DNA of 64,000 bases from an uncultured Alphaproteobacteria bacterium. GTDB lineage: Bacteria; Pseudomonadota; Alphaproteobacteria; Rhizobiales; Xanthobacteraceae. How positions within the stretch are numbered: position 1 is the stretch's first letter; each line of letters starts with the position of its first letter. The notes below the pieces were generated by a model, which saw only the letters and a list, made by a program, of their open reading frames with translations, had not been told where the DNA came from and did not search any database. The stretch lies in NCBI GenBank assembly GCA_963839985.1, contig CAWIXG010000002.1, positions 58,758 to 122,757 of the forward strand, given 5' to 3'. The translations under genes and the position numbers were made by a program. Below are positions 18,607-59,479 of the stretch, one piece after another.

Positions 18607-18704
18607 GTGGGAGGCTGACGAGCGACCCGAGTCGTAGCTCGTTAGGGCTGCTTCCTTCCGGACCTGACCCGGTTGGCGAGTGGCTCGTCCACCGCCAACC
18701 TCCC
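18607..18704 (-). ncRNA. ffs: signal recognition particle RNA (small/4.5S type)
   Basis: The minus strand carries the invariant domain IV core GGUCAGGUCCGGAAGGAAGCAGCC (complement of 18646-18669). It is closed by a terminal helix GGGAGG (18704-18699) / CCUCCC (18614-18609). It ends ~50 nt upstream of the dnaX start, a common ffs-dnaX arrangement. Confidence 0.85.
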
Positions 18705-46772: not shown

Positions 46773-48634
46773 CTAGCGCCCCCGCTCGAGCTTTGCCGCC
46801 TTGTCCTGATCGTACCACCATGTCGCTGGCGCGCCACGGCCGTAGCGCGGCGGCGCCAGATGGGCGAACACGTCCCAGTATGACATCCAGTGCGACGCCT
46901 TGTACCAGTGCGGGATCCAATAGCGGCCCGCCCGGATCACCCGGTCGAGCGCGCGGCAGGCATTGTTGAGCTCCTCGCGCGTGTTGGCCGCGATGATGAC
47001 CTCGATCAGCGCGTCGATCGCCGGATCGGCGATGCCGGCGAGATTCTGCGAGCCCTTGATCGCGGCCGACTGCGAGGAGAAATAGGCGCGCAGCGAGTCG
47101 CCCGGCGTCGAGGAAAAGCCCATCCGCGACACCGTGATGTCGAAATCGAAATCCTCGGTGCGCTTCTTGAACTGCACCGGGTCGACCTGGCGTATGGTCG
47201 CGTCGATGCCGAGCACGCCGAGGTTCTTGATGAACGGCATGTGGTGCGGCTGGAACGACGGTTCGTCGAGCAGGAATTCGATCGTGATCGGCTCGCCCTG
47301 CGGGCCGACGCGCTTGGCGTTCCTGATGACGTAGCCCGCCTGCTGCAGCAGCTGCGAGGCCCTGCGCAGCAGCGCACGGTCCTGCCCCGATCCGTCCGAC
47401 ACCGGCGGCACGAACGGCTCGCCGAACACTTCGTCCGGCACCTTGCCGCGGAACGGCTCCAGCAGCGCCAGCTCTTCGGCCGACGGCATGCCCTTCACCA
47501 TCATGTCGGAATTCTGGAACACCGAGTGGGTGCGGTCATACGACCCGTACATGATGTTCTTGTTGGTCCACTCGAAGTCGAAGGCGCAGATCAGCGCTTC
47601 GCGCAGACCGCGGTCCTTGAATTTCTCGCGCCGCATGTTGATGAACCAGCCCTGCGCGCCGGAGGGCGTGTCGTCGGGCAGGACCTCGCGCTTGACGCGG
47701 CCGTCCTTGATCGCGGGAAAATCGTACCGGGTCGCCCACACGCGCGAGGTAAATTCCTCGCGAACGAGGTAGGTCTTCGACGTGAACCCTTCGAAACCCG
47801 CCTCGCGGTCGCGGAAATACTCGTAGCGTACCGTGTCGAAATTGCCCTGCCCGCGCGAAACCGGCAGATCGGCGCCCCACCAGTCCTTCACCCGCTCGAA
47901 TTCGATGTAGCGTCCGGCCTCGAAGCGAGCGACCTTGTAGGGGCCGCAGCCGAGCGGCACGTCGAGCGTCGACTCGTCGAATGGGCGGCCGGCGTAATAG
48001 GCGCTGGAGAAGATCGGAAGGCCCGCGACGAACAGCGGCACGTCGCGGCCCCGCTTCGGCGCGAAGGTGACGACCACCGTGCGCTCGCCGTCCTCCTGCG
48101 CGCCGGCGAAGTCGCGCAGCAGCTGCATGATGATCGGGTGGCCCTTCTGCTTCAGCGCCGTGAACGAGAACACCACGTCCTTCGCGGTCAGCGGCGATCC
48201 GTCGTGGAATTTCGCCTCCGGCCGCAAGCTGTAGCGATGGGTCAGTCCGTCTTGCGAGATCGCGACCGATTGCGCCGCAAGCCCGTACATCGCATCCGGC
48301 TCGTCCTGCGCGCGCGCCATCAGGCTGACGAAGGTCAGGTCCATGCCGAGCGCGCCCTCGCCCTTGAAGATGTAGGCGTTGAGCGAGTTGAAGGTGAGGA
48401 ACGAGCCGTTGTAGCCGCGGCTGGTGACGACCTCGGAATAGAGCCCCCCCTTGGGGGCCGACGGATTGACGTAGCTGAAGTGTTTGAAATCGGCCGGATA
48501 GCTGAGGTCGCCGAAGGCCGAGATGCCGTGCCGTTCGGCGCCGGACGGTTGCTCCTGCGCCCGCGCGATGCGTGTCCCGGGCAAGGCGAGCGCAATCGTC
48601 GCGGCGGCCAGAACCTCGCGGCGGGTGAAACCCA

Positions 48635-48635
<1 letters not shown>
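46773..48635 (-). CDS. yejA: family-5 extracellular solute-binding protein (YejA-like, copy 2)
   Basis: GTG 48635 (VGFTRREVLAAATIALALPG...) overlaps the upstream TAG by 1 nt and lies in frame inside ORF 46773..48989. It is a paralogue of the upstream SBP (HGISAFGDLSYPADFKHFSYVNPSAPKGG versus HGLSLFGDLKYPAGFKHFDYVNPEAPKGG). Confidence 0.82.
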
Positions 48636-50518
<1,883 letters not shown>

Positions 50519-51427: not shown

Positions 51428-52159
51428 ATGGAGTCCAGCATCCTGATCCTGATCCCGGCGCGCATGGCGTCGGTGCGCCTGCCGGGCAAGCCGCTCGCCG
51501 ACATCGGTGGCGTGCCGATGATCGTGCGCGTGCTGCGCGCCGCGCAAGCCGCCGCCGTCGGGCCGGTCGCGGTCGCGACCGATTCCGCCGCGATCGCCGA
51601 CGCGGTGACGGCCGCGGGCGGGCAAGCCGTGATGACGCACGGCGACCATGTGTCGGGCTCGGACCGCATTTTCGAGGCGCTTGGCAAGGCCGATCCGGCC
51701 GGCAAGGCGGCGATCGTCGTCAACATCCAGGGCGATTTCCCGACGCTGCAGGGAGCCGACATCAAGGCCGCGCTCGCCCCCCTCGCCGACCCGGCGGTCG
51801 ACATCGCGACGCTTGCGCTGGAAATCACCGACGAGGCCGAGCGCACCGATCCGAACGTCGTGAAGGCGGTCTGCTCGGCGGTGTCGCCGGGCCGCATGCG
51901 CGCGCTCTATTTCACCCGCGCCACCGCGCCGGCCGGAGAAGGCCCGCTCTATCATCACATCGGCCTCTATGCCTATCGCCGCGCCGCGCTCGAACGTTTC
52001 GTCGCGCTGCCGCCGTCCCCGCTCGAACTGCGCGAACGGCTCGAGCAATTGCGCGCACTCGAAGCCGGCATGCGCATCGATGTCGCGCTGACCGCCAACC
52101 CGATCTTCGGCGTCGACACGCCACAGCATCTGGAAAAGGCGCGCGCGCTGATCGGTTGA
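51428..52159 (+). CDS. kdsB: 3-deoxy-manno-octulosonate cytidylyltransferase
   Basis: ATG 51428 within ORF 50633..52159. [30 protein letters not shown], and the [11 protein letters not shown] region. Confidence 0.9.
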
Positions 52160-52191
52160 CCCGAGCCGGCGTCAAGCATAACGGAACGCTC

Positions 52192-53043
52192 ATGAGCAAA
52201 CTGAAAATCGCATTCCAGGGCGAGCCCGGCGCCAACTCCGACATCGCGGCGCGCGAGGTCTATCCCGACTGCGAGCCGTTGCCCTGCGCGACCTTCGAAG
52301 ACGCGCTGGCGGCGATCCAGACCGGCAAGGCCGAACTCGGCATGATCCCGATCGAGAACTCGATCGCCGGACGGGTCGCCGACATCCATCATCTGCTGCC
52401 GCATGCCAAGCTGCACATCGTCGGCGAGCACTTCCTGCCGATCCATTTCAACTTGATGGCGCCGAAGGGCGCGACGCTGAAGACCGTCAAGTCGGTGGAA
52501 AGTCACATCCATGCGCTCGGCCAGTGCCGACGCTTCATCCGCAAGCATCACTACAACGCGGTGATCGCCGCCGACACCGCGGGGGCGGCGCGCCATATCG
52601 CGCAGGCCGGCGACATCACGCGCGCGGCGCTCGCGCCGAAGCTCGCCGCCAAAATCTACGGCCTCAAGGTGCTGGCCGAGAACGCCGAGGATGAGGATCA
52701 CAACACGACGCGCTTCGTGATCCTGTCGCGCAAGGAGAAGCGCGCGCGGCCCGGCAACGGCCTGGTGGTGACGACCTTCGTGTTTCAGGTGCGCAACCTG
52801 CCGGCCGCGCTGTACAAGGCGCTCGGCGGCTTCGCCACCAACAGCGTGAACATGACCAAGCTCGAAAGCTACATGATCGAGGGCAATTTCTTCGCCACGA
52901 TGTTCTACGCCGACGTCGAGAGCCATCCGGACGAGGCGCCGCTCAGGCGCGCACTCGAGGAGCTGGAATTCTTCTCGCAGCCCGGCTCGCTCAAGATCCT
53001 CGGCGTCTATCCGGGCAACGCCAAGTATCGATCCTCGAAGTAG
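52192..53043 (+). CDS. pheA: prephenate dehydratase
   Basis: ATG 52192. KIAFQGEPGANSD, the TRF motif (NTTRFVIL), and a C-terminal ACT domain. Confidence 0.9.
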   Translation: MSKLKIAFQGEPGANSDIAAREVYPDCEPLPCATFEDALAAIQTGKAELGMIPIENSIAGRVADIHHLLPHAKLHIVGEHFLPIHFNLMAPKGATLKTVKSVESHIHALGQCRRFIRKHHYNAVIAADTAGAARHIAQAGDITRAALAPKLAAKIYGLKVLAENAEDEDHNTTRFVILSRKEKRARPGNGLVVTTFVFQVRNLPAALYKALGGFATNSVNMTKLESYMIEGNFFATMFYADVESHPDEAPLRRALEELEFFSQPGSLKILGVYPGNAKYRSSK

Positions 53044-53118
53044 CCACGGCTCAGCTGATTCTAGCCGATCCCGGCGCGGCCACGTTAAGGTGAACTGGCG
53101 CGAATCACGGAGGTGCCG

Positions 53119-53442
53119 ATGGCCACTGCAGAACGGAAAGTCCGCCGCACGCTGCACTTCCGCTTCACCATGCCGTCGGCGGACCCGACGCAGCTCCTCT
53201 CCTTCGTCAACGCCTCGAAGCCGTTCTACGAGATGCTCGGCGGCACCGAGGTGCGGCTGATCCAGAATGTCGACGACCCGGCAAAATTCATCCAGGTGAT
53301 CGAATACGAGACGCAGGAGTCGATGGAGATCAACCGCGCGCGCATCGCCGGCGACATGCGGCTGCAGACGTATCTGCAGGCCTGGCGCGCGATCCTGCCC
53401 GGCGGCGTCGAGATCGACGTGTTCAAGGATGTGGAGCCGTAG
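53119..53442 (+). CDS. small ABM/ferredoxin-fold-like protein (hypothetical)
   Basis: GGAGG is followed 6 nt later by ATG 53119. The protein is 107 aa: RRTLHFRFTMPSADPTQLLSFVNASKPFYEMLGGTEVRLIQNVDDPAKFIQVIEYETQESME. Its pattern resembles antibiotic-biosynthesis-monooxygenase-type domains. The family call comes from pattern only. Confidence 0.55.
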   Translation: MATAERKVRRTLHFRFTMPSADPTQLLSFVNASKPFYEMLGGTEVRLIQNVDDPAKFIQVIEYETQESMEINRARIAGDMRLQTYLQAWRAILPGGVEIDVFKDVEP

Positions 53443-53467
53443 CCGGCTCTTTGCGACTGAGTGCAGG

Positions 53468-56400
53468 CTATTCGCGCAGCCGCTGTTCGATTTTGCCGCG
53501 ATCCGCGGGGTTCAGCCGGCGCAGGCGAGACCTGGCGGCATCTGCCAGCGTGTCGTCTCTCAGTCCGGGAATGTCCCACAATTCATTCCAGACATGCTGC
53601 CAGTCGACCCGCGCGTCCCGGCCGGCAAGCCACGCGCGCGCGGCCGATACGAGAGACTCGCGCGGATTCGACGACGCGGCTTGCGCTTCACGCCAGAGCG
53701 TCAGCCATACGTGCGCCCATCGCGGATGCACCTTAACGATCCGGCCCAACCACCCCTCGCCCAATGTTGCAAGACCGCCGCGATACGGCGTGTGGCCCGC
53801 AACGGTTTCCTCCCAGAGGATTCTCCAGACGGACGTCCAGCCAAATTGTTTGAGGTCGTATGCGGCGAGCCAGTCCTTGGCCTGTTGCGCCAGGACATCG
53901 CGCCTGGGCGGATCTCCTTCCGCGTCGTTCCATTGCATTTCCCAGGCGTCCTTCCATTGGTAGGGGTGCGCGCCGCCATCCCGCGGCGGCTCCGACAAGT
54001 CCTCGAGCCACGGCCCTCCGAGCGCACGCAGTCCGGCGTCGGTCTTGTCGGATTCACGCCAAAGCTCCTGCCAGACATATTTCGCTCCCTCCAGGGTCGC
54101 CGGCGCCTGAGGCAGCCATTTGCGCGCGCAGGCGCGAAGGTCGTCATCCGCCTGCGCTTGCCAAAGCGCCAGCCACACGTATCCCCAGGAGGTGGGGTCG
54201 GCGGAAGGCTGGTCGAGCCACGCACGCGCGCGCGCGCGAAAATCCGCATCCGGCTGTGCCTGCCAAAGCGCCCTCCAGACGAACGACCATGACCTGTGTT
54301 TGGCGGCTGCCTCGTCGAGCCACGCGCGCCCGCGGGCGCGAAGATCGTCGTCCGCCCGCGCCTGCCAAAGCTCCTGCCAGACAAATCCCCAGCTGTCGTG
54401 GTTGACGGATGCTTCGTCGAGCCATCTGCGCGCGCGCGAGCGAAGATCCTCATCCGCCCGCGCTTGCCAAAAGGCCTTCCAGACGAATGCCCAGGAAGCG
54501 TGGTCGACGGACACTTCGTCGAGCCATCTGCGTCCGCGGACACGAAGATCCTCATCCGCCTGCGCCTGCCAGAGCGCCAGCCAGACGTATCCCCAGGAGG
54601 GGTGGTCGGTGGACGCCTGGTCGAGCCACGCACGCCCACGGGTGCGAAGGTCGTCATCCGCGCGCGCTTGCCAGAGCGCCTGCCAGACGTATTGCCAGGA
54701 CCCGTGGTCGGCGGATGCCGCGTCGAGCCACGCGCGCCCGCTGGCGCGAAGATCGTCATCCGCCTGCGCCTCCCAAAGCGCCAGCCAGACGTATCCCCAG
54801 GAGACGTGGTCGGCGGGGACTTCGCCGAGCCATGCGCGCCCGCGGGCGCCCAGACCATCATCCGCATGCGGATGCCAGAGCGCCTGCCAAACTAAGGCCC
54901 ATGAGGCGCGATCGGCAGCCGCTTCGTCGAGCCAGGCGCGTCCGCAGGCGGTGAGATCGTCATCCGCCCGCGCTTGCCAGAGCGCCAGCCATATGAAAGC
55001 CCACGCGCTGTGGGCGGCGGAGACCGCGCCGAGCCACGCGCGGGCGCGGGCGCGAAGATCCTCATCCGCCTTTGCTTGCCATAGCGCTTGCCAGACATAT
55101 CGCCACGAACCGTGATCGGCAGACGCTTCGCCGAGCCACCTGCGCCCACGTTCGCCGAGATCGTCATCCGCCTGCGCTTGCCAGAGCGCCTCCCAGATGA
55201 ATCCCCAGGAGTCGTGACCTGCGGACGCTTCGTCGAGCCACGTGCGCCCGCGGGCGCGCAGATCCTCATCCGCCTTCCCTTGCCAGAGCGCCTCCCAGAT
55301 GAACCCCCAGGAATCGTGGCCGGCGGATACTTGATCGAGCCACGTGCGCGCACGGGCGCGAAGATCCTCATCCGCCCGCCCTTGCCAAAGCGCTTGCCAG
55401 ACAAATGCCCAGCCGTCGTGGTCGGAGAACGCTTCGTCGAGCCACCTGCGCGCTCGAGCCCGCAGACCGTCGTCGGCCTTGTTCGAATCCGCCCAGAGCC
55501 TTTCCCAGACGCGGTCCCAACCGACTGTGTCCGGCCTCGATGCGTCCAGCCAATCTCTGGCGATCCGCGTGGACTGGGCTCGATCACTTCCGGGCGCGCC
55601 ATGCAGTCTTTCCCACACGTGGCTCCAGGAGGAATGATCCGGCTGAACGCGCAGGAACGTCCACGCGCGCAGATTTGTCTCCTCGCAAGGTTCGAACGCA
55701 TCGGCGAAATTGGTAAAAATCCCAGGCCAATTCGGATCGCTTGCAAGCGCGGCATTGAGCCACGATAAAATGACCCGGCGCGCCGCCAGCCGGTCCGATT
55801 GGGCAAAGCAAGCCGCGACCAATCGTCGGGTGGTGAGTTTGTTGCATTCCCGGACCACAAAATCCGTGACCGGGCCTTCAATGTCGGTGATGCCGATCAG
55901 TATCAGGTAGTCCGTGGCCAGCGGACCCCATTCGCGCCAGCCGGGATACTTCATCAACACCTGGGCGACGATGGATGCGGCGTCCGGAAGCAAGTCGCGA
56001 TGTTGCAAAAGCTTGTGACACGACAGCCGGAAACCGGACGCCTGTTCTTCAGCCGTACGCACTGCGGCTCCGATGCATTCGATCGGCCGTGGCTGAAGAT
56101 TGAGGTCCAGTTGCCGGTCGAGATCCGCCCATACCGGCAGGTCCGCCAGCAAATTCGGCGATTGGATGAATTGCGCCTGATAAATATCGACCAGCAGTTC
56201 GCGCAACTCCGGCTCGACCACGGCGATCCGCTGTCGCGTTTCGGTGCTCGCCCGCGCTCGATCGGAGGTCAGCCGCGCCGCCGCCCATAAAGGAGCCAGC
56301 CGCCGCGATGGCGCGCCTCCGGAGTTCAATGCGGCGTAAATGCCGGCGCGCAAGTGCGCCTTGCGATAGCGCCGCCGGTCCGCCCCGCCGAACCAGGCGA

Positions 56401-56857
56401 TATAGATCGCATTGGCAAGGTGCGGGTGGGTCAAGCGGTAGCCGGCTTTGTCGGCGTCGAACGAGAGATGCCGCTCCAGACCTTTCAACCGGTCGAACGC
56501 CGCGCCGAGTTGGGGGTCGCGTTCCAGTTCGTCATCGATCGATTGTGCCGGGAAGAGCGCATAGAGGCGGTTCATCGACAGGATCTCGGCGATCAGGTCG
56601 AAGATCGTCCGCGACGAAGCCCCTTTTCTTTCCATCCCTTCCAGGCGCCTGCGGAAGCTCGCTGCGAATTCCGGCAGCGGTTCGCCGGTTGCCCACTCGA
56701 AGAACAACTGGACAATGAGAACATTGCCCGCGTCGCCCACGGGCAGATCCGTTTTGCCGGTGCGCCGCCGGTACCATTCCTTTAGCTCATCGATGTCGTC
56801 GAGCGTCTCCAGAAAGTCGGGCGGCGACTTCTCCAGGAGTACGCGATCGACCAGTCA
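53468..56857 (-). CDS. STAND locus fragment C: helical/winged-helix region and ~20 Trp-rich helical repeats
   Basis: The ORF track starts this ORF at GTG 56740, but the frame is open and protein-like back to 56857, directly after an in-frame TGA. A GYRLTHPHLANAIY (MHD-like) segment is followed by repeats of consensus WgfvWqALWqaqADdDLRaRGRaWLDeasadHdS. Confidence 0.7.
54086..55411 (-). repeat. 13 tandem in-frame 102-bp (34-aa) coding repeats, core of the Trp-rich array
   Basis: Counting from GTG 56740, the first Trp of each unit falls at residues 444, 478, 512, 546, 580, 614, 648, 682, 716, 750, 784, 818 and 852. That is an exact 34-residue period with no indels. Degenerate units continue on both sides (about 53540-55627). 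Confidence 0.9.
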
Positions 56858-57216
56858 TTCTGGAAATATTCCATCTGCTCGGTTGGCCCACAGCAAACCA
56901 TCGCCGGTCGCGGAGCATCCGGATACGCAACCGTGATCGAATCGAGCTCACGCAGCGAGTTCTCGATTGCGGCGGCGACGCGCTGTGAGCGTTCGGCCGT
57001 GTAAGGGTCGTCCGAGGCAAATATGACGTCCTGGCGCCTGGCGAAAAACGGACGCGCCCACCGGACGGCCTCCGCGAGGCGGTCTGCCTGGTCGCCCAGC
57101 CAGATGACGATGCGCCGATCGTCCTCGCTGTGGATATTGGCGAGGAGATGAAGCAAGGCGACGCTCTTTCCGGCGCCCGACGGGCCTGAGATCCACCAGA
57201 CGGGGAGTTCGGGCAT
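56782..57216 (-). CDS. STAND locus fragment B: P-loop NTPase core
   Basis: Walker A is WWISGPSGAGKSVALLHLL and the candidate Walker B is RQDVIFASDDPY. The last ~22 codons (SIAYSWRSRRPTFWRRSTTSMS) look out of frame. Confidence 0.65.
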   Translation of the reverse strand: MPELPVWWISGPSGAGKSVALLHLLANIHSEDDRRIVIWLGDQADRLAEAVRWARPFFARRQDVIFASDDPYTAERSQRVAAAIENSLRELDSITVAYPDAPRPAMVCCGPTEQMEYFQNDWSIAYSWRSRRPTFWRRSTTSMS

Positions 57217-58051
57217 CGGTGGTTGCCTGCCGGTTGGCGAACCATGTTTCGACGTCGCCGTGGAGCGTTTTGTAGAAAGCGCGCGGAGCGAACCGCCCTT
57301 CCATCAGGTGGATCCGCGTCGGGAGCTGCCCGGTCAGGGTCGCCTTCCGGCGGTCGAGTTCGAGCCGTGCTTCCGCGGGCGGCCGGTCGGTGGCCTGCCA
57401 AATGTAGAACCGGTGCGCGAGCTCACGCGCCGCAGTTGCAAGCGCATCGAGCTCGACGATGATCGACCGGCAGCTTGCATCGAGTCCTTCGGGCGTTGGA
57501 TTGGCGAGAAGCCGGCCGATCCATTTCTCGACGGTCGCGAACGGATCGCCGGCGCCGAATGCATTCACCAGATGGATCGCAAGTGCATGTAGCGGATCGG
57601 CCTCCACGCGAACGGACACGCGGCGGCGAAACGCATCGAGGGCGGATTCGGCGACCTCGCCGCCGGGTCGCCAGCGCGCCAGCGCGGACTCGACGTCGCG
57701 CAGGATTTTCCTCGACGTGAGCACGCAATAGCGCAGTTGAGGCGCGATACTGAGCGCTTCTTCGGAGGCCAGGACATCGATCTCCCACAGCTCCTTCAGC
57801 GCCTTTTGCATCGCGCCGGAGTGGAGCGAGAGCTTCGCCTGGGTGACGACGAGATAGCCGCCCTCCGTGCTCACGATGTCGGAAAGCGCCTCGACGAAAA
57901 CGTTCGACTGATCCGGCGCACCCGTCTTGCGGGCGAGTTGCAGCAGCGCGGCGGCCAATTGAAACTGGAATCCCTCGATGGAGGCCAGCCCGCCCGCCCC
58001 CTCGCGCCGCAAGCCCCACTTCCGTCGCAGGTGGTCGAATTCAGCCCACAT
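56948..58051 (-). CDS. STAND locus fragment A: Cap4/DUF4297-like PD-(D/E)xK nuclease domain plus linker
   Basis: ATG 58051 within ORF 56948..58117. GAGGLASIEGFQFQLAAALLQLARK...VFVEALSDIVSTEGGYLVVTQAKLS. The last ~85 codons (after ~57213) are Arg/Pro-rich out-of-frame read-through. Confidence 0.65.
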   Translation of the reverse strand: MWAEFDHLRRKWGLRREGAGGLASIEGFQFQLAAALLQLARKTGAPDQSNVFVEALSDIVSTEGGYLVVTQAKLSLHSGAMQKALKELWEIDVLASEEALSIAPQLRYCVLTSRKILRDVESALARWRPGGEVAESALDAFRRRVSVRVEADPLHALAIHLVNAFGAGDPFATVEKWIGRLLANPTPEGLDASCRSIIVELDALATAARELAHRFYIWQATDRPPAEARLELDRRKATLTGQLPTRIHLMEGRFAPRAFYKTLHGDVETWFANRQATTDARTPRLVDLRPVGRRKERRLASSPRQYPQRGRSAHRHLAGRPGRPPRGGRPVGASVFRQAPGRHICLGRPLHGRTLTARRRRNRELAA

Positions 58052-58195
58052 TCCGTGCCGTCCGCTGACGCGCGCACCGAAAGTGTATCGACTCGTAGTT
58101 GAATGGGCCAGCAGCAAGGGCGCGGCCGGATATCGCGACGCCGCAGGCGGATCCGGCGCGATACAGCCGCGGCGCTGCCTTCGCCAGCGGCGCGG

Positions 58196-59479
58196 CTACA
58201 CGCCGAAAATCTTCGGCAGGAACGTGGACAGCGGCGGGATGTAGCTGATCAGGATCAGCACGGCGACGTTGGTCAGGATGAACGGCAGGATCCCGGCGAC
58301 CACCGCTTCCATCGGCCGGTTGAGCGTCGACGCCGCGACCGCAAGGTCGAGCCCAAGCGGCGGCATGATCATGCCGGTACAAACATTGAGCGTGACGACC
58401 ATGCCGAAATGCACCGGGTCGATACCGAGCGCGGCGGCGACCGGGAACAGGGTCGGCAGGAAGATGACCATGATCGAATTGGGATCGAGGAACATCGCGC
58501 AGGCGAGAAAGATGACGTTCACGACCATCATGAACACGACCCAGTTCACGCCGCCATCGCGCACCAGCGCGAGCACCGCCCGGTCGACGCCCGACAGCGT
58601 GATGAAGAAGGCGAGCAGCGCACCCATCGCCAGCAGGATGAAGATCACGCCGGTCGAGATCGCGCTGTCCTTGGCGATATCGAACACATCGCGCCAGCCG
58701 AAGGCGCGAAAGATCAGCACCTCGACGCCGATCGCGTAGACGACGGAGACAGCCGCGGCTTCGGTCGCGGTGAACACCCCGGAGAAAATCCCGACCAGCA
58801 GGATCACCTGCATCAGCAGCGCCCAGAACGCGTCGCGGAACGCCTTCCACCGCGCCGCGCCCGAATAGCGTTCGCCGACCGCGGCGCCGACGCGCCAGGC
58901 TTCCAGCGCGACCAGCACCATGAAGGCGAGGCCGAGAACGATCCCGATGACGAGGCCGGCGGCGAACAGCGCGGCGATCGACGTCCCGGTCAGCCAGCTG
59001 TAGACCACGAAGGTGATCGAGGGCGGGATCAGCAGCGCGCATTCGGCGCTCGATGCGATCAGCCCGAGGCTGAATTTCTCGGAAAATCCGGCGCGCTTGA
59101 GCTCGGGAAACGACAGCCGCCCCATCGCGGCGACGGTCGCGGGCGCGGAACCGGCGGCGGCGCCGAACACCATGCAGGTGACGACCGTGGAATGACCGAT
59201 GCCGCCGCGGTAGTGCCCGACCAGCGCCCGGAACAGCTCGGCAAGCTGCGCCGCCATGCGGCCGCGCGCCATCAGGTCCGAGGCGAAGACGAAGAACGGG
59301 ATCGCGAGCAGCGTCACGACCTCGACGCCACCGACCACGCGCTGCCCGATGATCAGGTCGGGCATGTGCGGGTGGAAGATGTGCTTGGCGAGAACCGCCG
59401 GAAGGCCGATGACGAGAAATATCTCGGTGCCCGCGATCAGCAGCGCGACGGCGAACACGATCAGCAGCAGAACGATCAT
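58196..59479 (-). CDS. dctM: TRAP transporter large permease
   Basis: 427 aa, polytopic, DctM-family sequence (MIVLLLIVFAVALLIAGTEIFLVIGL...). Confidence 0.9.
   Translation of the reverse strand: MIVLLLIVFAVALLIAGTEIFLVIGLPAVLAKHIFHPHMPDLIIGQRVVGGVEVVTLLAIPFFVFASDLMARGRMAAQLAELFRALVGHYRGGIGHSTVVTCMVFGAAAGSAPATVAAMGRLSFPELKRAGFSEKFSLGLIASSAECALLIPPSITFVVYSWLTGTSIAALFAAGLVIGIVLGLAFMVLVALEAWRVGAAVGERYSGAARWKAFRDAFWALLMQVILLVGIFSGVFTATEAAAVSVVYAIGVEVLIFRAFGWRDVFDIAKDSAISTGVIFILLAMGALLAFFITLSGVDRAVLALVRDGGVNWVVFMMVVNVIFLACAMFLDPNSIMVIFLPTLFPVAAALGIDPVHFGMVVTLNVCTGMIMPPLGLDLAVAASTLNRPMEAVVAGILPFILTNVAVLILISYIPPLSTFLPKIFGV

What the first reader, a model, noticed from the sequence alone, without database searches (positions are those of the whole stretch)
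54086..55411. Perfectly phased array of 13 x 34-aa tryptophan-rich repeats (4 Trp per unit) that does not fit a named repeat family
Unit example: W-G-F-I-W-E-A-L-W-Q-G-K-A-D-E-D-L-R-A-R-G-R-T-W-L-D-E-A-S-A-G-H-D-S.

Nearly invariant positions are W1, W5, L8, W9, A13, D14, D16, L17, R22, W24 and L25. Variation is concentrated at positions 2-3, 6, 10-12, 18-21 and 26-34. This is the pattern expected if a conserved helical-hairpin core displays a diversified surface.

Thirteen consecutive units keep an exact 34-residue (102-bp) register. Roughly seven looser units flank them (36-42 aa; 53540-55627 overall).

The period equals that of TPR repeats, but the TPR signature (W4-L7-G8-Y11...A20-F24-A27-P32) is absent. 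About 12 percent Trp is extreme.

In Avs/NLR proteins the repeat domain is the ligand (phage protein) sensor. High DNA-level similarity between units also makes this a recombination- and slippage-prone region.
Basis: seen in the sequence. Interest (0 to 1): 0.75.

Follow-up and report, generated by a model that had tools for sequence, protein, structure and literature searches.

The report
Tryptophan-rich TPR-like sensor of broken STAND gene
The 13 tryptophan-rich 34-residue repeats are real and form a TPR-like helical coil that no repeat database names; it is the likely phage-sensing tail of an Avs-like bacterial immune protein whose gene, in this genome, is broken by two frameshifts.

Summary
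On the minus strand, 54086-55411 encodes 13 consecutive 34-aa units with no indels. W1, W5, W9, W24, D14, R22 and L25 are invariant and Trp is 11.8% of the array. Seven looser units flank it.

No Pfam, NCBIfam or PDB-sequence profile recognises the repeat. An hhalign comparison with consensus TPR gave 0.02% probability. AlphaFold2 (pLDDT 93.7) gives an 11-residue helix, a 3-residue turn, a 13-residue helix and a 7-residue loop. Foldseek's best matches are HAT and TPR superhelices, all weak. So the fold is TPR-like but the sequence family is unnamed. It is found in 653 of 1.84 billion representative proteins.

The array belongs to a roughly 1527-aa gene: a Cap4/LmuA-like nuclease, an nSTAND5 P-loop NTPase, a helical arm and the repeats. 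This is the Avs3/Avs7 layout, so a role as ligand sensor is plausible by analogy. Independent arrays vary most on the exposed face of helix A, at positions 2, 3, 6, 7 and 10.

There are two caveats. The gene carries a +1 shift near 57208 and a -1 shift near 56854, which put the NTPase core out of frame. This is either a pseudogene or sequencing error. Unit DNA identity averages only 74%, with at most 27 nt identical, so "slippage-prone" is overstated here.

The parts
53468..58051 (-). Whole Avs-like STAND gene. It reads as 1527 aa once two 1-nt frameshifts are corrected. As the sequence stands it is split into ORFs 56948-58117, 56782-57216 and 53468-56740.
   Evidence: tblastn of the intact 1629-aa homologue P0002 covers 58051 to 53546, with the NTPase segment in a different frame. 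Reconstruction. All 30 homologues are single ORFs of 735-1891 aa.
57209..58051 (-). N-terminal effector domain: a Cap4/LmuA-like PD-(D/E)xK nuclease plus linker (aa 1-281).
   Evidence: AlphaFold2 pLDDT 85. Foldseek top hits are LmuA 9nxx_B (2.7e-4), Hachiman 8zue_A (7.8e-4) and Avs3 8dgc_A (1.2e-3), followed by HerA-DUF 9c1m_G (2.4e-3) and restriction endonucleases (6e-3 and weaker). G27, Q31, E54, D58 and K73 are invariant and Q71 is nearly invariant in 23 homologues. Sequence hits are weak: PADLOC LmuA 7e-4, Pfam Cap4_nuclease E=0.16, PDB profile Cap4 6vm6 E=0.11.
57200..57212 (-). Frameshift 1: one extra nucleotide (modelled at 57208) in 'gatgcccgaactccccgtctgg', between ...TTDAR and LPVWWISG.
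   Evidence: Three-frame translation and tblastn against P0002. Reconstruction skips 1 nt. The GC3 frame plot switches frame at about 57240.
56854..57207 (-). P-loop NTPase core (nSTAND5), out of frame relative to the rest of the gene. Walker A GPSGAGKS lies at 57163-57186 and Walker B VIFASDD at 57007-57027.
   Evidence: Pfam PF25199 nSTAND_NTPase5, 2.8e-9, 37.4 bits against a cut-off of 34. 62% identity to P0002 over 118 aa.
56850..56858 (-). Frameshift 2: one missing nucleotide (modelled at 56854) in 'aatgactggtc', between ...FQND and LVDRVLL. It restores the original frame.
55628..56853 (-). Helical arm between the NTPase core and the repeats. It carries conserved family motifs: LIVQLFFEW, NRLYALFP, HPHLANAIY, LAPLWA.
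   Evidence: Conserved across the family in alignment A2. No Pfam hit.
55412..55627 (-). Two looser 36-aa repeat units (aa 372-443) at the N-terminal edge of the array.
   Evidence: Regex and unit-HMM hits.
54086..55411 (-). The finding itself: 13 tryptophan-rich 34-aa units in exact register (aa 444-885). Each unit is helix A (positions 1-11), turn (12-14), helix B (15-27) and loop (28-34).
   Evidence: TRF. Per-position counts. Unit-HMM E-values 1e-19 to 1e-21 per unit. AlphaFold2 model of 8 units, pLDDT 93.7, pTM 0.83.
53471..54085 (-). Five degenerate C-terminal units. The last four or so form a cap that also occurs in homologues P0007, P0009 and P0019.

Best explanation
The array is the central, lineage-amplified part of a roughly 20-unit alpha-solenoid. 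This solenoid forms the C-terminal domain of a single-gene, Avs-like STAND NTPase of the nSTAND5 clade.

Shown:
- Each unit is a helix-turn-helix hairpin.
- The conserved residues W1, V4, W5, L8 and W9 on helix A, and L17, G/A21, W24 and L25 on helix B, have the i, i+3, i+4, i+7, i+8 spacing of one helical face.
- The positions that vary most, within this array and within independent arrays of homologues, are 2, 3, 6, 7 and 10. These lie on the opposite face of helix A.
- The same polypeptide carries a Cap4/LmuA-like PD-(D/E)xK nuclease and a P-loop NTPase.

Inferred:
- The four Trp residues per unit form a continuous buried aromatic spine.
- The fold is a TPR derivative in which the small and large residues at the TPR signature positions are swapped (G8 to W, A20 to L, F24 to G/A, A27 to W).
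- By analogy with Avs3, Avs4 and Avs7, the solenoid binds a conserved phage protein. Binding would relieve autoinhibition, and the NTPase would drive oligomerisation. That would assemble the nuclease domains into an active DNase that kills the infected cell.

In this genome the gene carries two compensating 1-nt frameshifts that put the NTPase core out of frame. As sequenced it is a recently inactivated pseudogene, unless the two indels are sequencing errors.
For: Array and register.

Hairpin fold: AlphaFold2 pLDDT 93.7, pTM 0.83.

TPR/HAT-like superhelix: the Foldseek top hits are spliceosomal chains (8ro2_J, 9l5r_I, 8qpe_N), which I take from memory to be the HAT-repeat subunits, not checked here. 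They are followed by OGT TPR 1w3b, designed consensus TPR 8chy and 9qhc, and SART3 HAT 5ctr.

Family consensus from 372 units in 45 proteins: W1 100%, W5 98%, W24 99%, L25 98%, G/A21 99%, H32 91%.

Shared hypervariable positions across independent arrays: Spearman 0.47-0.64 against the window array for 6 of 8 arrays. In P0017 (92% identical units) the largest entropies are at positions 2 and 6, and the only other varying positions (3, 7, 10, 16, 28, 29) each differ in a single unit.

Lineage-specific amplification: 12 of 13 window units are closer to another window unit than to any unit elsewhere.

STAND membership: PF25199 at 37.4 bits against a cut-off of 34. 20 of 31 sampled repeat-bearing proteins hit PF25199.

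Nuclease effector.

Effector swapping on the same chassis, a hallmark of conflict systems: kinase in P0134, caspase in P0184.

Published mechanism of Cap4-STAND-TPR proteins: PMC13581612.

Frameshifts.
Against: - No anti-phage activity or ligand is known for any member.
- No PADLOC Avs model matches.
- The gene here and in three homologue loci sits alone among housekeeping genes rather than in a defence island. Only one locus has Vsr and an HATPase_c_3-domain gene nearby.
- Foldseek E-values to TPR/HAT structures are weak (2e-3 or worse, query TM-score at most 0.57).
- dN/dS among units is below 1 overall, and only a few single positions approach or exceed 1 without statistical support.
- Trp burial could not be measured.
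- In this genome the protein cannot be made as one chain if the sequence is correct.
Confidence: 0.68

Rival explanations
1. The units are ordinary TPR, HAT or Sel1 repeats that are merely divergent. They serve as a generic protein-protein scaffold with no special sensor role.
For: The period is 34 aa. AlphaFold2 gives a helix-turn-helix. The best Foldseek matches are TPR and HAT solenoids. The conserved positions can be laid over the TPR signature positions with an offset of 3.
Against: There is no TPR, HAT or Sel1 Pfam hit at E<=1 in the window ORF or five homologues. Only 1 of 31 repeat-bearing proteins hits TPR models. hhalign against consensus TPR gives 0.02% probability. The residue types at the signature positions differ (Trp in place of Gly or Ala). 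Hypervariability is concentrated on one helix face in independent arrays. Fusion to a nuclease and a STAND NTPase argues for a receptor role.
Confidence: 0.15
2. The protein is a non-immune STAND signalling or regulatory NTPase of the MalT/AfsR kind, and its repeats bind an endogenous ligand.
For: The gene sits between pheA and a TRAP transporter. The homologues examined also sit among housekeeping genes, with no conserved defence neighbours. Defence and non-defence STAND clades are interspersed (PMC13581612).
Against: There is no HTH or other DNA-binding output domain. The N-terminus is a Cap4/LmuA-like nuclease with intact E..D..QxK residues. Relatives replace the nuclease with a caspase or a kinase. 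The distribution is patchy, with only 30 close homologues among 5.8 billion clusters, and the repeat number varies. All of this is typical of conflict systems.
Confidence: 0.1
3. The perfect array is an assembly artefact, either collapsed or expanded.
For: Contigs carrying homologues often end at or inside their arrays (truncated P0010 and P0012). This shows that such arrays can defeat assemblers.
Against: In this window the units are only 62-86% identical at the DNA level. The longest repeated string in 53468-55700 is 27 nt, and no 31-mer of the region recurs elsewhere in the window. Any assembler using k>=31 therefore resolves the array unambiguously. The reading frame and all invariant residues are intact through all units.
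Confidence: 0.03
4. The two frameshifts are functional: either programmed ribosomal frameshifting or a deliberately split gene expressed as separate nuclease and sensor pieces.
For: The two shifts compensate each other exactly and bracket the NTPase core. The out-of-frame segment is still 62% identical to P0002 and has no internal stop.
Against: Neither junction has a slippery heptamer or a prfB-like site (sequence). All 30 homologues are single in-frame ORFs. Reading through in the original frame meets stops at 56948 and about 56857.
Confidence: 0.04

Closest known systems
Avs3 and Avs7 (antiviral STAND proteins with Cap4-like nuclease, STAND NTPase and TPR-like sensor; PDB 8DGC; PMC13581612)
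   Same: The three-part order is the same: N-terminal Cap4-like PD-(D/E)xK nuclease, P-loop STAND NTPase, C-terminal alpha-helical repeat sensor. Avs3 chain 8dgc_A is the fourth-best structural match of the N-terminal domain. Like them it is a single-gene system.
   Different: The NTPase belongs to Pfam nSTAND_NTPase5, and no PADLOC Avs model matches. The sensor here is a strictly periodic, Trp-rich 34-aa array. The one comparison available is the published description of the SeAvs7 sensor as bilobed. No trigger is known. In this window the gene is frameshifted.
Tetratricopeptide repeat (TPR, Pfam clan CL0020), including designed consensus TPR
   Same: The unit is a 34-aa helix-turn-helix that stacks into a superhelix. 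Designed consensus TPRs (8chy, 9qhc) and the OGT TPR domain (1w3b) are among the best Foldseek matches, with TM-scores of 0.47-0.54. The conserved positions coincide with TPR positions 4, 7, 8, 11, 20, 24, 27 and 32 at an offset of 3 (inference).
   Different: No TPR profile matches. Trp or Leu replace the small residues G8, A20 and A27, and G/A replaces F24. By my recollection of the TPR unit, helix A is about 3 residues shorter and the inter-unit loop longer (7 residues, with an H-x-S motif). Trp content is 11.8%.
HAT (half-a-TPR) repeats of spliceosomal and RNA-processing proteins (SART3, Rrp5, and by my recollection Syf1, Clf1, Prp6)
   Same: Foldseek places these among the best matches. 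The spliceosomal chains 8ro2_J, 9l5r_I and 8qpe_N are the top three (their HAT identity is from memory), and SART3 5ctr and Rrp5 5nlg are named HAT or TPR domains. HAT repeats are also rich in aromatic residues.
   Different: There is no Pfam HAT hit at E<=1. The position pattern of the aromatic residues differs. HAT proteins are eukaryotic RNA-processing scaffolds, not bacterial NTPase fusions.
Highly internally conserved repeat arrays of fungal NLRs (HET-E/NWD-type WD40, ANK and TPR arrays). This comparison comes from general knowledge and was not tested here.
   Same: A STAND NTPase is fused to an array whose units are more similar within a protein than between proteins. Variation is concentrated at a few surface positions, and unit number differs between relatives.
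   Different: The organisms are bacterial. In this window the array is older: 62% aa identity and dS about 0.72 between units, so there is no current homogenisation. Positive selection is not demonstrated.

Membership tests
TPR (Pfam TPR_1/2/8 and related models, clan CL0020) | 34-aa helix-turn-helix units stacked into a right-handed superhelix | tested here: met
   The AlphaFold2 model has helices at unit positions 1-11 and 15-27 and a 34-aa period. Foldseek matches TPR solenoids 1w3b, 8chy and 9qhc with TM-scores of 0.47-0.54. Handedness was not checked.
TPR (Pfam TPR_1/2/8 and related models, clan CL0020) | Signature residues W4-L7-G8-Y11-A20-F24-A27-P32, or a significant match to a TPR profile | tested here: not met
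   No TPR hit at E<=1 in the window ORF or five homologues. Only 1 of 31 relatives hits TPR models. hhalign against consensus TPR gives 0.02% probability.
HAT repeat (Pfam PF02184) | Match to the HAT profile or its three-aromatic pattern | tested here: not met
   No HAT hit at E<=1. There is only weak fold similarity (E 2e-3 or worse) to spliceosomal chains, which I take from memory to be HAT-repeat subunits, and to the SART3 and Rrp5 domains.
Sel1-like, HEAT, PPR and pentapeptide repeats | Match to the corresponding Pfam profile | tested here: not met
   No hit in the window ORF at E<=1. HEAT_2 hits occur in 4 of 31 relatives; their location in those proteins was not checked.
STAND NTPase, nSTAND_NTPase5 (PF25199) | P-loop domain scoring above the Pfam gathering threshold, with Walker A and Walker B motifs | tested here: met
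   ORF 56782-57216 scores 37.4 bits against a cut-off of 34, E=2.8e-9. It contains GPSGAGKS and VIFASDD.
STAND NTPase, nSTAND_NTPase5 (PF25199) | The NTPase lies in one reading frame with the effector and the repeats | tested here: not met
   The window gene needs a +1 correction near 57208 and a -1 correction near 56854. The homologues are intact.
Avs (antiviral STAND) | Three-part architecture: effector, STAND NTPase, C-terminal helical-repeat sensor | tested here: met
   architecture as described in PMC13581612.
Avs (antiviral STAND) | Match to a PADLOC Avs model | tested here: not met
   PADLOC returned only weak LmuA, BrxC and mad8 hits and no Avs model. Membership of one of the roughly 90 newer Avs families could not be checked because the supplements are not held.
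Avs (antiviral STAND) | Located in defence islands | tested here: inconclusive
   The window gene lies between pheA and TRAP dctM. Three homologue loci sit among housekeeping genes; one has Vsr and an HATPase_c_3-domain gene nearby.
Avs (antiviral STAND) | Phage-protein-triggered oligomerisation and anti-phage activity | not testable with these tools
   This requires experiments.
Cap4/LmuA/DUF4297-type PD-(D/E)xK nuclease | Restriction-endonuclease-like fold with conserved acidic and Lys catalytic residues | tested here: met
   Foldseek hits LmuA 2.7e-4, Hachiman 8zue_A 7.8e-4 and Avs3 1.2e-3, followed by HerA-DUF 9c1m_G (2.4e-3) and restriction endonucleases (6e-3 and weaker). E54, D58 and K73 are invariant and Q71 is nearly invariant.
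Cap4/LmuA/DUF4297-type PD-(D/E)xK nuclease | Pfam PF14130 match above threshold | tested here: not met
   E=0.16, 12.6 bits against a cut-off of 26.2. Only homologue P0019 has a precomputed PF14130 hit.

The most novel reading that the evidence does not exclude
The Trp-rich unit may define a distinct, still unnamed repeat family: a TPR derivative with an inverted large/small packing code and a continuous Trp spine. Under this reading it acts as a portable, fast-evolving receptor module. It would be shared among nSTAND5 and NACHT NTPases and combined with nuclease, kinase or caspase effectors. New specificities would arise by unit amplification plus variation on the exposed face of helix A, the bacterial counterpart of the hypervariable repeat arrays of fungal NLRs. 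It would also be a natural, highly regular scaffold for binder design.
Probability: 0.4. Interest if true: 0.6.

Novelty: new variant of a known kind. Interest (0 to 1): 0.42.

Why it matters
Bacterial STAND and Avs proteins are now known to recognise much of the core phage proteome through TPR-like sensors (PMC13581612). This family adds a sensor type that current domain libraries (Pfam, NCBIfam, PADLOC) do not describe. It is unusually regular and has an extreme Trp content, about ten times the usual 1.1-1.3% (general knowledge).

The variable positions can be read directly from the arrays. That makes the likely binding surface predictable and testable by mutation. The repeat could be given a profile model, which would improve annotation of several hundred large 'hypothetical proteins'.

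For this particular genome the practical message is more modest. The gene is apparently inactive, or the assembly has two indel errors.

Tried and rejected
- Literature search for 'nSTAND5' returned only unrelated papers. Searches for tryptophan-rich or W-rich repeats returned only IRF and malaria-antigen papers. The paper that defined nSTAND1 and nSTAND2 does not mention this repeat.
- The repeat profile against PDB sequences gave nothing below E=0.3. NCBIfam gave nothing.
- No close relative was found for comparing unit number between strains or for checking the frameshifts. The best homologue is 64% identical over part of its length. The GTDB genome scan returned three loci at 39-47% identity. 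A metagenome DNA pattern spanning frameshift 1 found nothing, and a metagenome protein scan found nothing.
- The exact 1090-aa ORF is not in the 15-billion-protein collection, and the neighbouring dctM gene could not be located on a contig. The source organism therefore remains unidentified.
- Programmed frameshifting was considered and rejected for lack of slippery sites.
- I tested for positive selection among units with Nei-Gojobori estimates. Overall dN/dS is 0.34, and single positions near or above 1 (positions 12, 18, 32, 33) have no statistical weight with 13 units and near-saturated dS.
- Model coordinates are not exposed by the tools, so Trp burial and the groove location of the variable residues could not be measured.
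- The supplements of PMC13581612 are not held, so assignment to one of its 589 clades or 684 sensor clusters could not be checked.
Full report
**1. The observation**

Tandem Repeats Finder reports one array at 54122-55445 with period 102, 13.0 copies, 75% matches, no indels and score 1234. The array is coding on the minus strand, inside ORF 53468..56740 (1090 aa). They consist of 13 units in an unbroken 34-residue register.

W1, W5, W9, D14, R22, W24 and L25 are identical in all 13 units. A7, L8, A13, D16 and L17 are identical in 12 of 13. Trp accounts for 52 of 442 residues (11.8%). The most variable positions are 33, 6, 31, 2, 12 and 23.

Two 36-aa units precede the array and five degenerate units follow it, giving about 20 units over 53471-55627. 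Units share 62-86% nucleotide identity (mean 74%). The longest string repeated anywhere in the region is 27 nt.

That divergence also argues against an assembly artefact. No 31-mer is ambiguous.

**2. What the unit is**

No sequence library recognises it.
- Pfam at E<=1 returns no TPR, Sel1, HEAT, HAT or PPR hit for the window ORF or for five full-length homologues.
- NCBIfam returns nothing.
- A profile of eight units finds nothing in the sequences of solved structures below E=0.3.
- hhalign against an eight-repeat consensus TPR gives 0.02% probability.

AlphaFold2 was run on eight units, with an alignment built from in-register pieces of this array and of homologous arrays. It gave pLDDT 93.7 and pTM 0.83. 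Each unit is an 11-residue helix (positions 1-11), a 3-residue turn, a 13-residue helix (positions 15-27) and a 7-residue loop.

The best Foldseek matches in the PDB are spliceosomal chains (8ro2_J, 9l5r_I, 8qpe_N), which I take from memory to be the HAT-repeat subunits. They are followed by the OGT TPR superhelix (1w3b), designed consensus TPRs (8chy, 9qhc) and the SART3 HAT domain (5ctr). All are weak: E 2e-3 or worse, query TM-score at most 0.57, and 8-18% identity. So the fold class is TPR-like alpha-solenoid, while the sequence family is unnamed.

A family-level consensus from 372 units in 45 proteins is W1-x-[YF]-V-W5-x-x-L-W9 ... D14-x-x-L17-x-x-x-[GA]21-x-x-W24-L25-x-x-A-P-x-x-H32-x-S34. 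The conserved positions 1, 4, 5, 8 and 17, 21, 24, with P29, coincide with TPR signature positions 4, 7, 8, 11, 20, 24, 27 and 32 when shifted by three. The residue sizes are swapped: Trp or Leu stand where TPR has Gly or Ala, and Gly/Ala stands where TPR has Phe.

The only local hhalign alignment uses this same register, but it is statistically insignificant. I therefore offer the 'inverted-code TPR' reading as an inference.

The conserved residues follow the i, i+3, i+4, i+7, i+8 spacing of one helical face on each helix. This is the pattern expected for the inter-helix core.

**3. The gene around it**

The 1090-aa ORF lacks a P-loop. Upstream on the same strand, ORF 56782-57216 contains GPSGAGKS and VIFASDD. 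It matches Pfam nSTAND_NTPase5 above threshold, at 37.4 bits against a cut-off of 34. ORF 56948-58117 encodes an N-terminal domain.

All 30 homologues found among 5.8 billion protein clusters are single ORFs of 735-1891 aa, and most carry PF25199. Aligning P0002 to the DNA shows one gene running from 58051 to 53468. One extra nucleotide lies near 57208, between ...TTDAR and LPVWWISG. One nucleotide is missing near 56854, between ...FQND and LVDRVLL. As a result the 118-residue NTPase core is read in another frame. A third-position GC plot switches frame at the same two places.

Neither site is slippery. The shifted segment is 62% identical to P0002 and has no stop. The lesions are therefore either recent mutations or sequencing errors, and I cannot tell which.

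**4. The effector**

The first 281 residues were modelled at pLDDT 85. Their best structural matches are:
- LmuA of Lamassu (9nxx_B, 2.7e-4);
- the Hachiman system chain 8zue_A (7.8e-4), HamA by my recollection;
- Avs3 (8dgc_A, 1.2e-3);
- the HerA-DUF assembly 9c1m_G (2.4e-3; the DUF4297 complex as I recall it), and then type II restriction endonucleases (6e-3 and weaker).

G27, Q31, E54, D58 and K73 are invariant and Q71 is nearly invariant across 23 homologues. Sequence-level hits to Cap4 and LmuA are weak but point to the same N-terminal region. The architecture is thus Cap4-like nuclease, then STAND NTPase, then helical-repeat sensor. This is the layout of Avs3 and Avs7, whose TPR-like domains bind phage proteins and whose nucleases are activated by tetramerisation (PMC13581612).

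**5. Distribution and evolution of the repeat**

A profile search of 1.84 billion representative proteins finds 653 with E<=1e-3 and 437 with E<=1e-10. Most of the 150 listed are 1100-2000 aa, with the repeats starting around residue 800-1000.

Of 31 sampled proteins, 20 hit nSTAND5 and 2 hit NACHT. Other members carry kinase, caspase, EAD1, DUF4062 or S1 domains, and only one has classical TPR hits. P0134 is kinase-nSTAND5-repeats, and P0184 begins with a caspase domain. Of 61 proteins examined, 40 align to the window's N-terminal domain over more than 200 residues.

Unit periods range from 33 to 36 aa. The differences I inspected lie in the helix A to helix B turn (sequences).

Within-protein unit identity ranges from 92% (P0017) and 78% (P0001) down to about 35%. 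The window array is intermediate at 62%. Twelve of its 13 units are closest to another unit of the same array, which indicates a lineage-specific but no longer recent amplification. Synonymous divergence between units is about 0.72.

Positions 2, 3, 6, 7 and 10 are among the most variable positions in independent arrays. In the near-identical units of P0017 the largest entropies are at positions 2 and 6, and the only other varying positions (3, 7, 10, 16, 28, 29) each differ in a single unit. These five positions lie on the face of helix A opposite the W1/W5/W9 stripe.

Nei-Gojobori dN/dS among the window units is 0.34 overall, 0.48 for the variable class and 0.23 for the rest. Constraint is clearly relaxed on the surface, but positive selection is not shown.

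**6. Context**

In the window the gene lies alone between prephenate dehydratase (52156-53043, + strand) and a TRAP transporter (dctM at 58196-59479, - strand). kdsB and peptide ABC-transporter genes lie further out. GC content does not differ from the surroundings.

Three homologue loci likewise show a single gene among housekeeping genes with no conserved partner. This fits a single-protein system but provides no defence-island support.

**7. Verdict**

The array is real, and it is correctly described as a repeat that no named family captures at the sequence level. Structurally it is a TPR-like solenoid with an unusual Trp-based core. It is the C-terminal domain of an Avs-like nSTAND5 protein with a Cap4-like nuclease. 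Its role as a ligand sensor rests on analogy and on the surface-restricted variability.

The array is not highly similar at the DNA level, and the gene as sequenced is disrupted by two compensating frameshifts.

I rate it a new variant of a known kind. It would be of moderate interest to specialists in bacterial immunity and repeat-protein design.

Noticed in passing
window 56850-57212 (minus strand): The gene carrying the array has two compensating 1-nt frameshifts, +1 near 57208 and -1 near 56854. They put the P-loop NTPase core (Walker A at 57163-57186) out of frame. The gene is either a pseudogene or the assembly has two indel errors.
   Followed up: yes
L002 (Bauldia MAG contig end), L003, and truncated proteins P0010 and P0012: Several contigs carrying homologues end just before or inside the repeat array. 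Arrays with near-identical units appear to break short-read assemblies, so unit counts in public homologues may be underestimates.
   Followed up: partly
P0134, P0184 and other members of alignment A2: The same Trp-rich repeat is combined with other effectors (Ser/Thr kinase, caspase, EAD1, DUF4062). In 2 of 31 sampled proteins a NACHT domain is detected and nSTAND5 accounts for 20 others. The repeat therefore looks like a mobile sensor module.
   Followed up: partly
window 53471-53965 (aa about 926-1090 of the ORF): The last four or so degenerate units (YQWKDAW..., GWTSVW..., RWAHVW..., DWQHVW...) recur in the same order in P0007, P0009 and P0019. They form a conserved C-terminal cap rather than part of the amplified array.
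   Followed up: partly
window 53043-53468 and 58052-58195: The STAND gene is a single-gene insert between pheA and the TRAP transporter dctM. No tRNA was found anywhere in the window and there is no compositional anomaly; integrase or transposase genes were not searched for.
   Followed up: partly
window 18607-18703 (minus strand): Bacterial small SRP RNA (Rfam RF00169, 53.5 bits). It is the only Rfam hit in the window.
   Followed up: no
window 46773-50518 (minus strand): Two adjacent family-5 solute-binding protein genes (SBP_bac_5) lie next to an ABC permease gene. Their ORFs run well upstream of the domain, which is probably over-extension of ORFs in GC-rich DNA.
   Followed up: no
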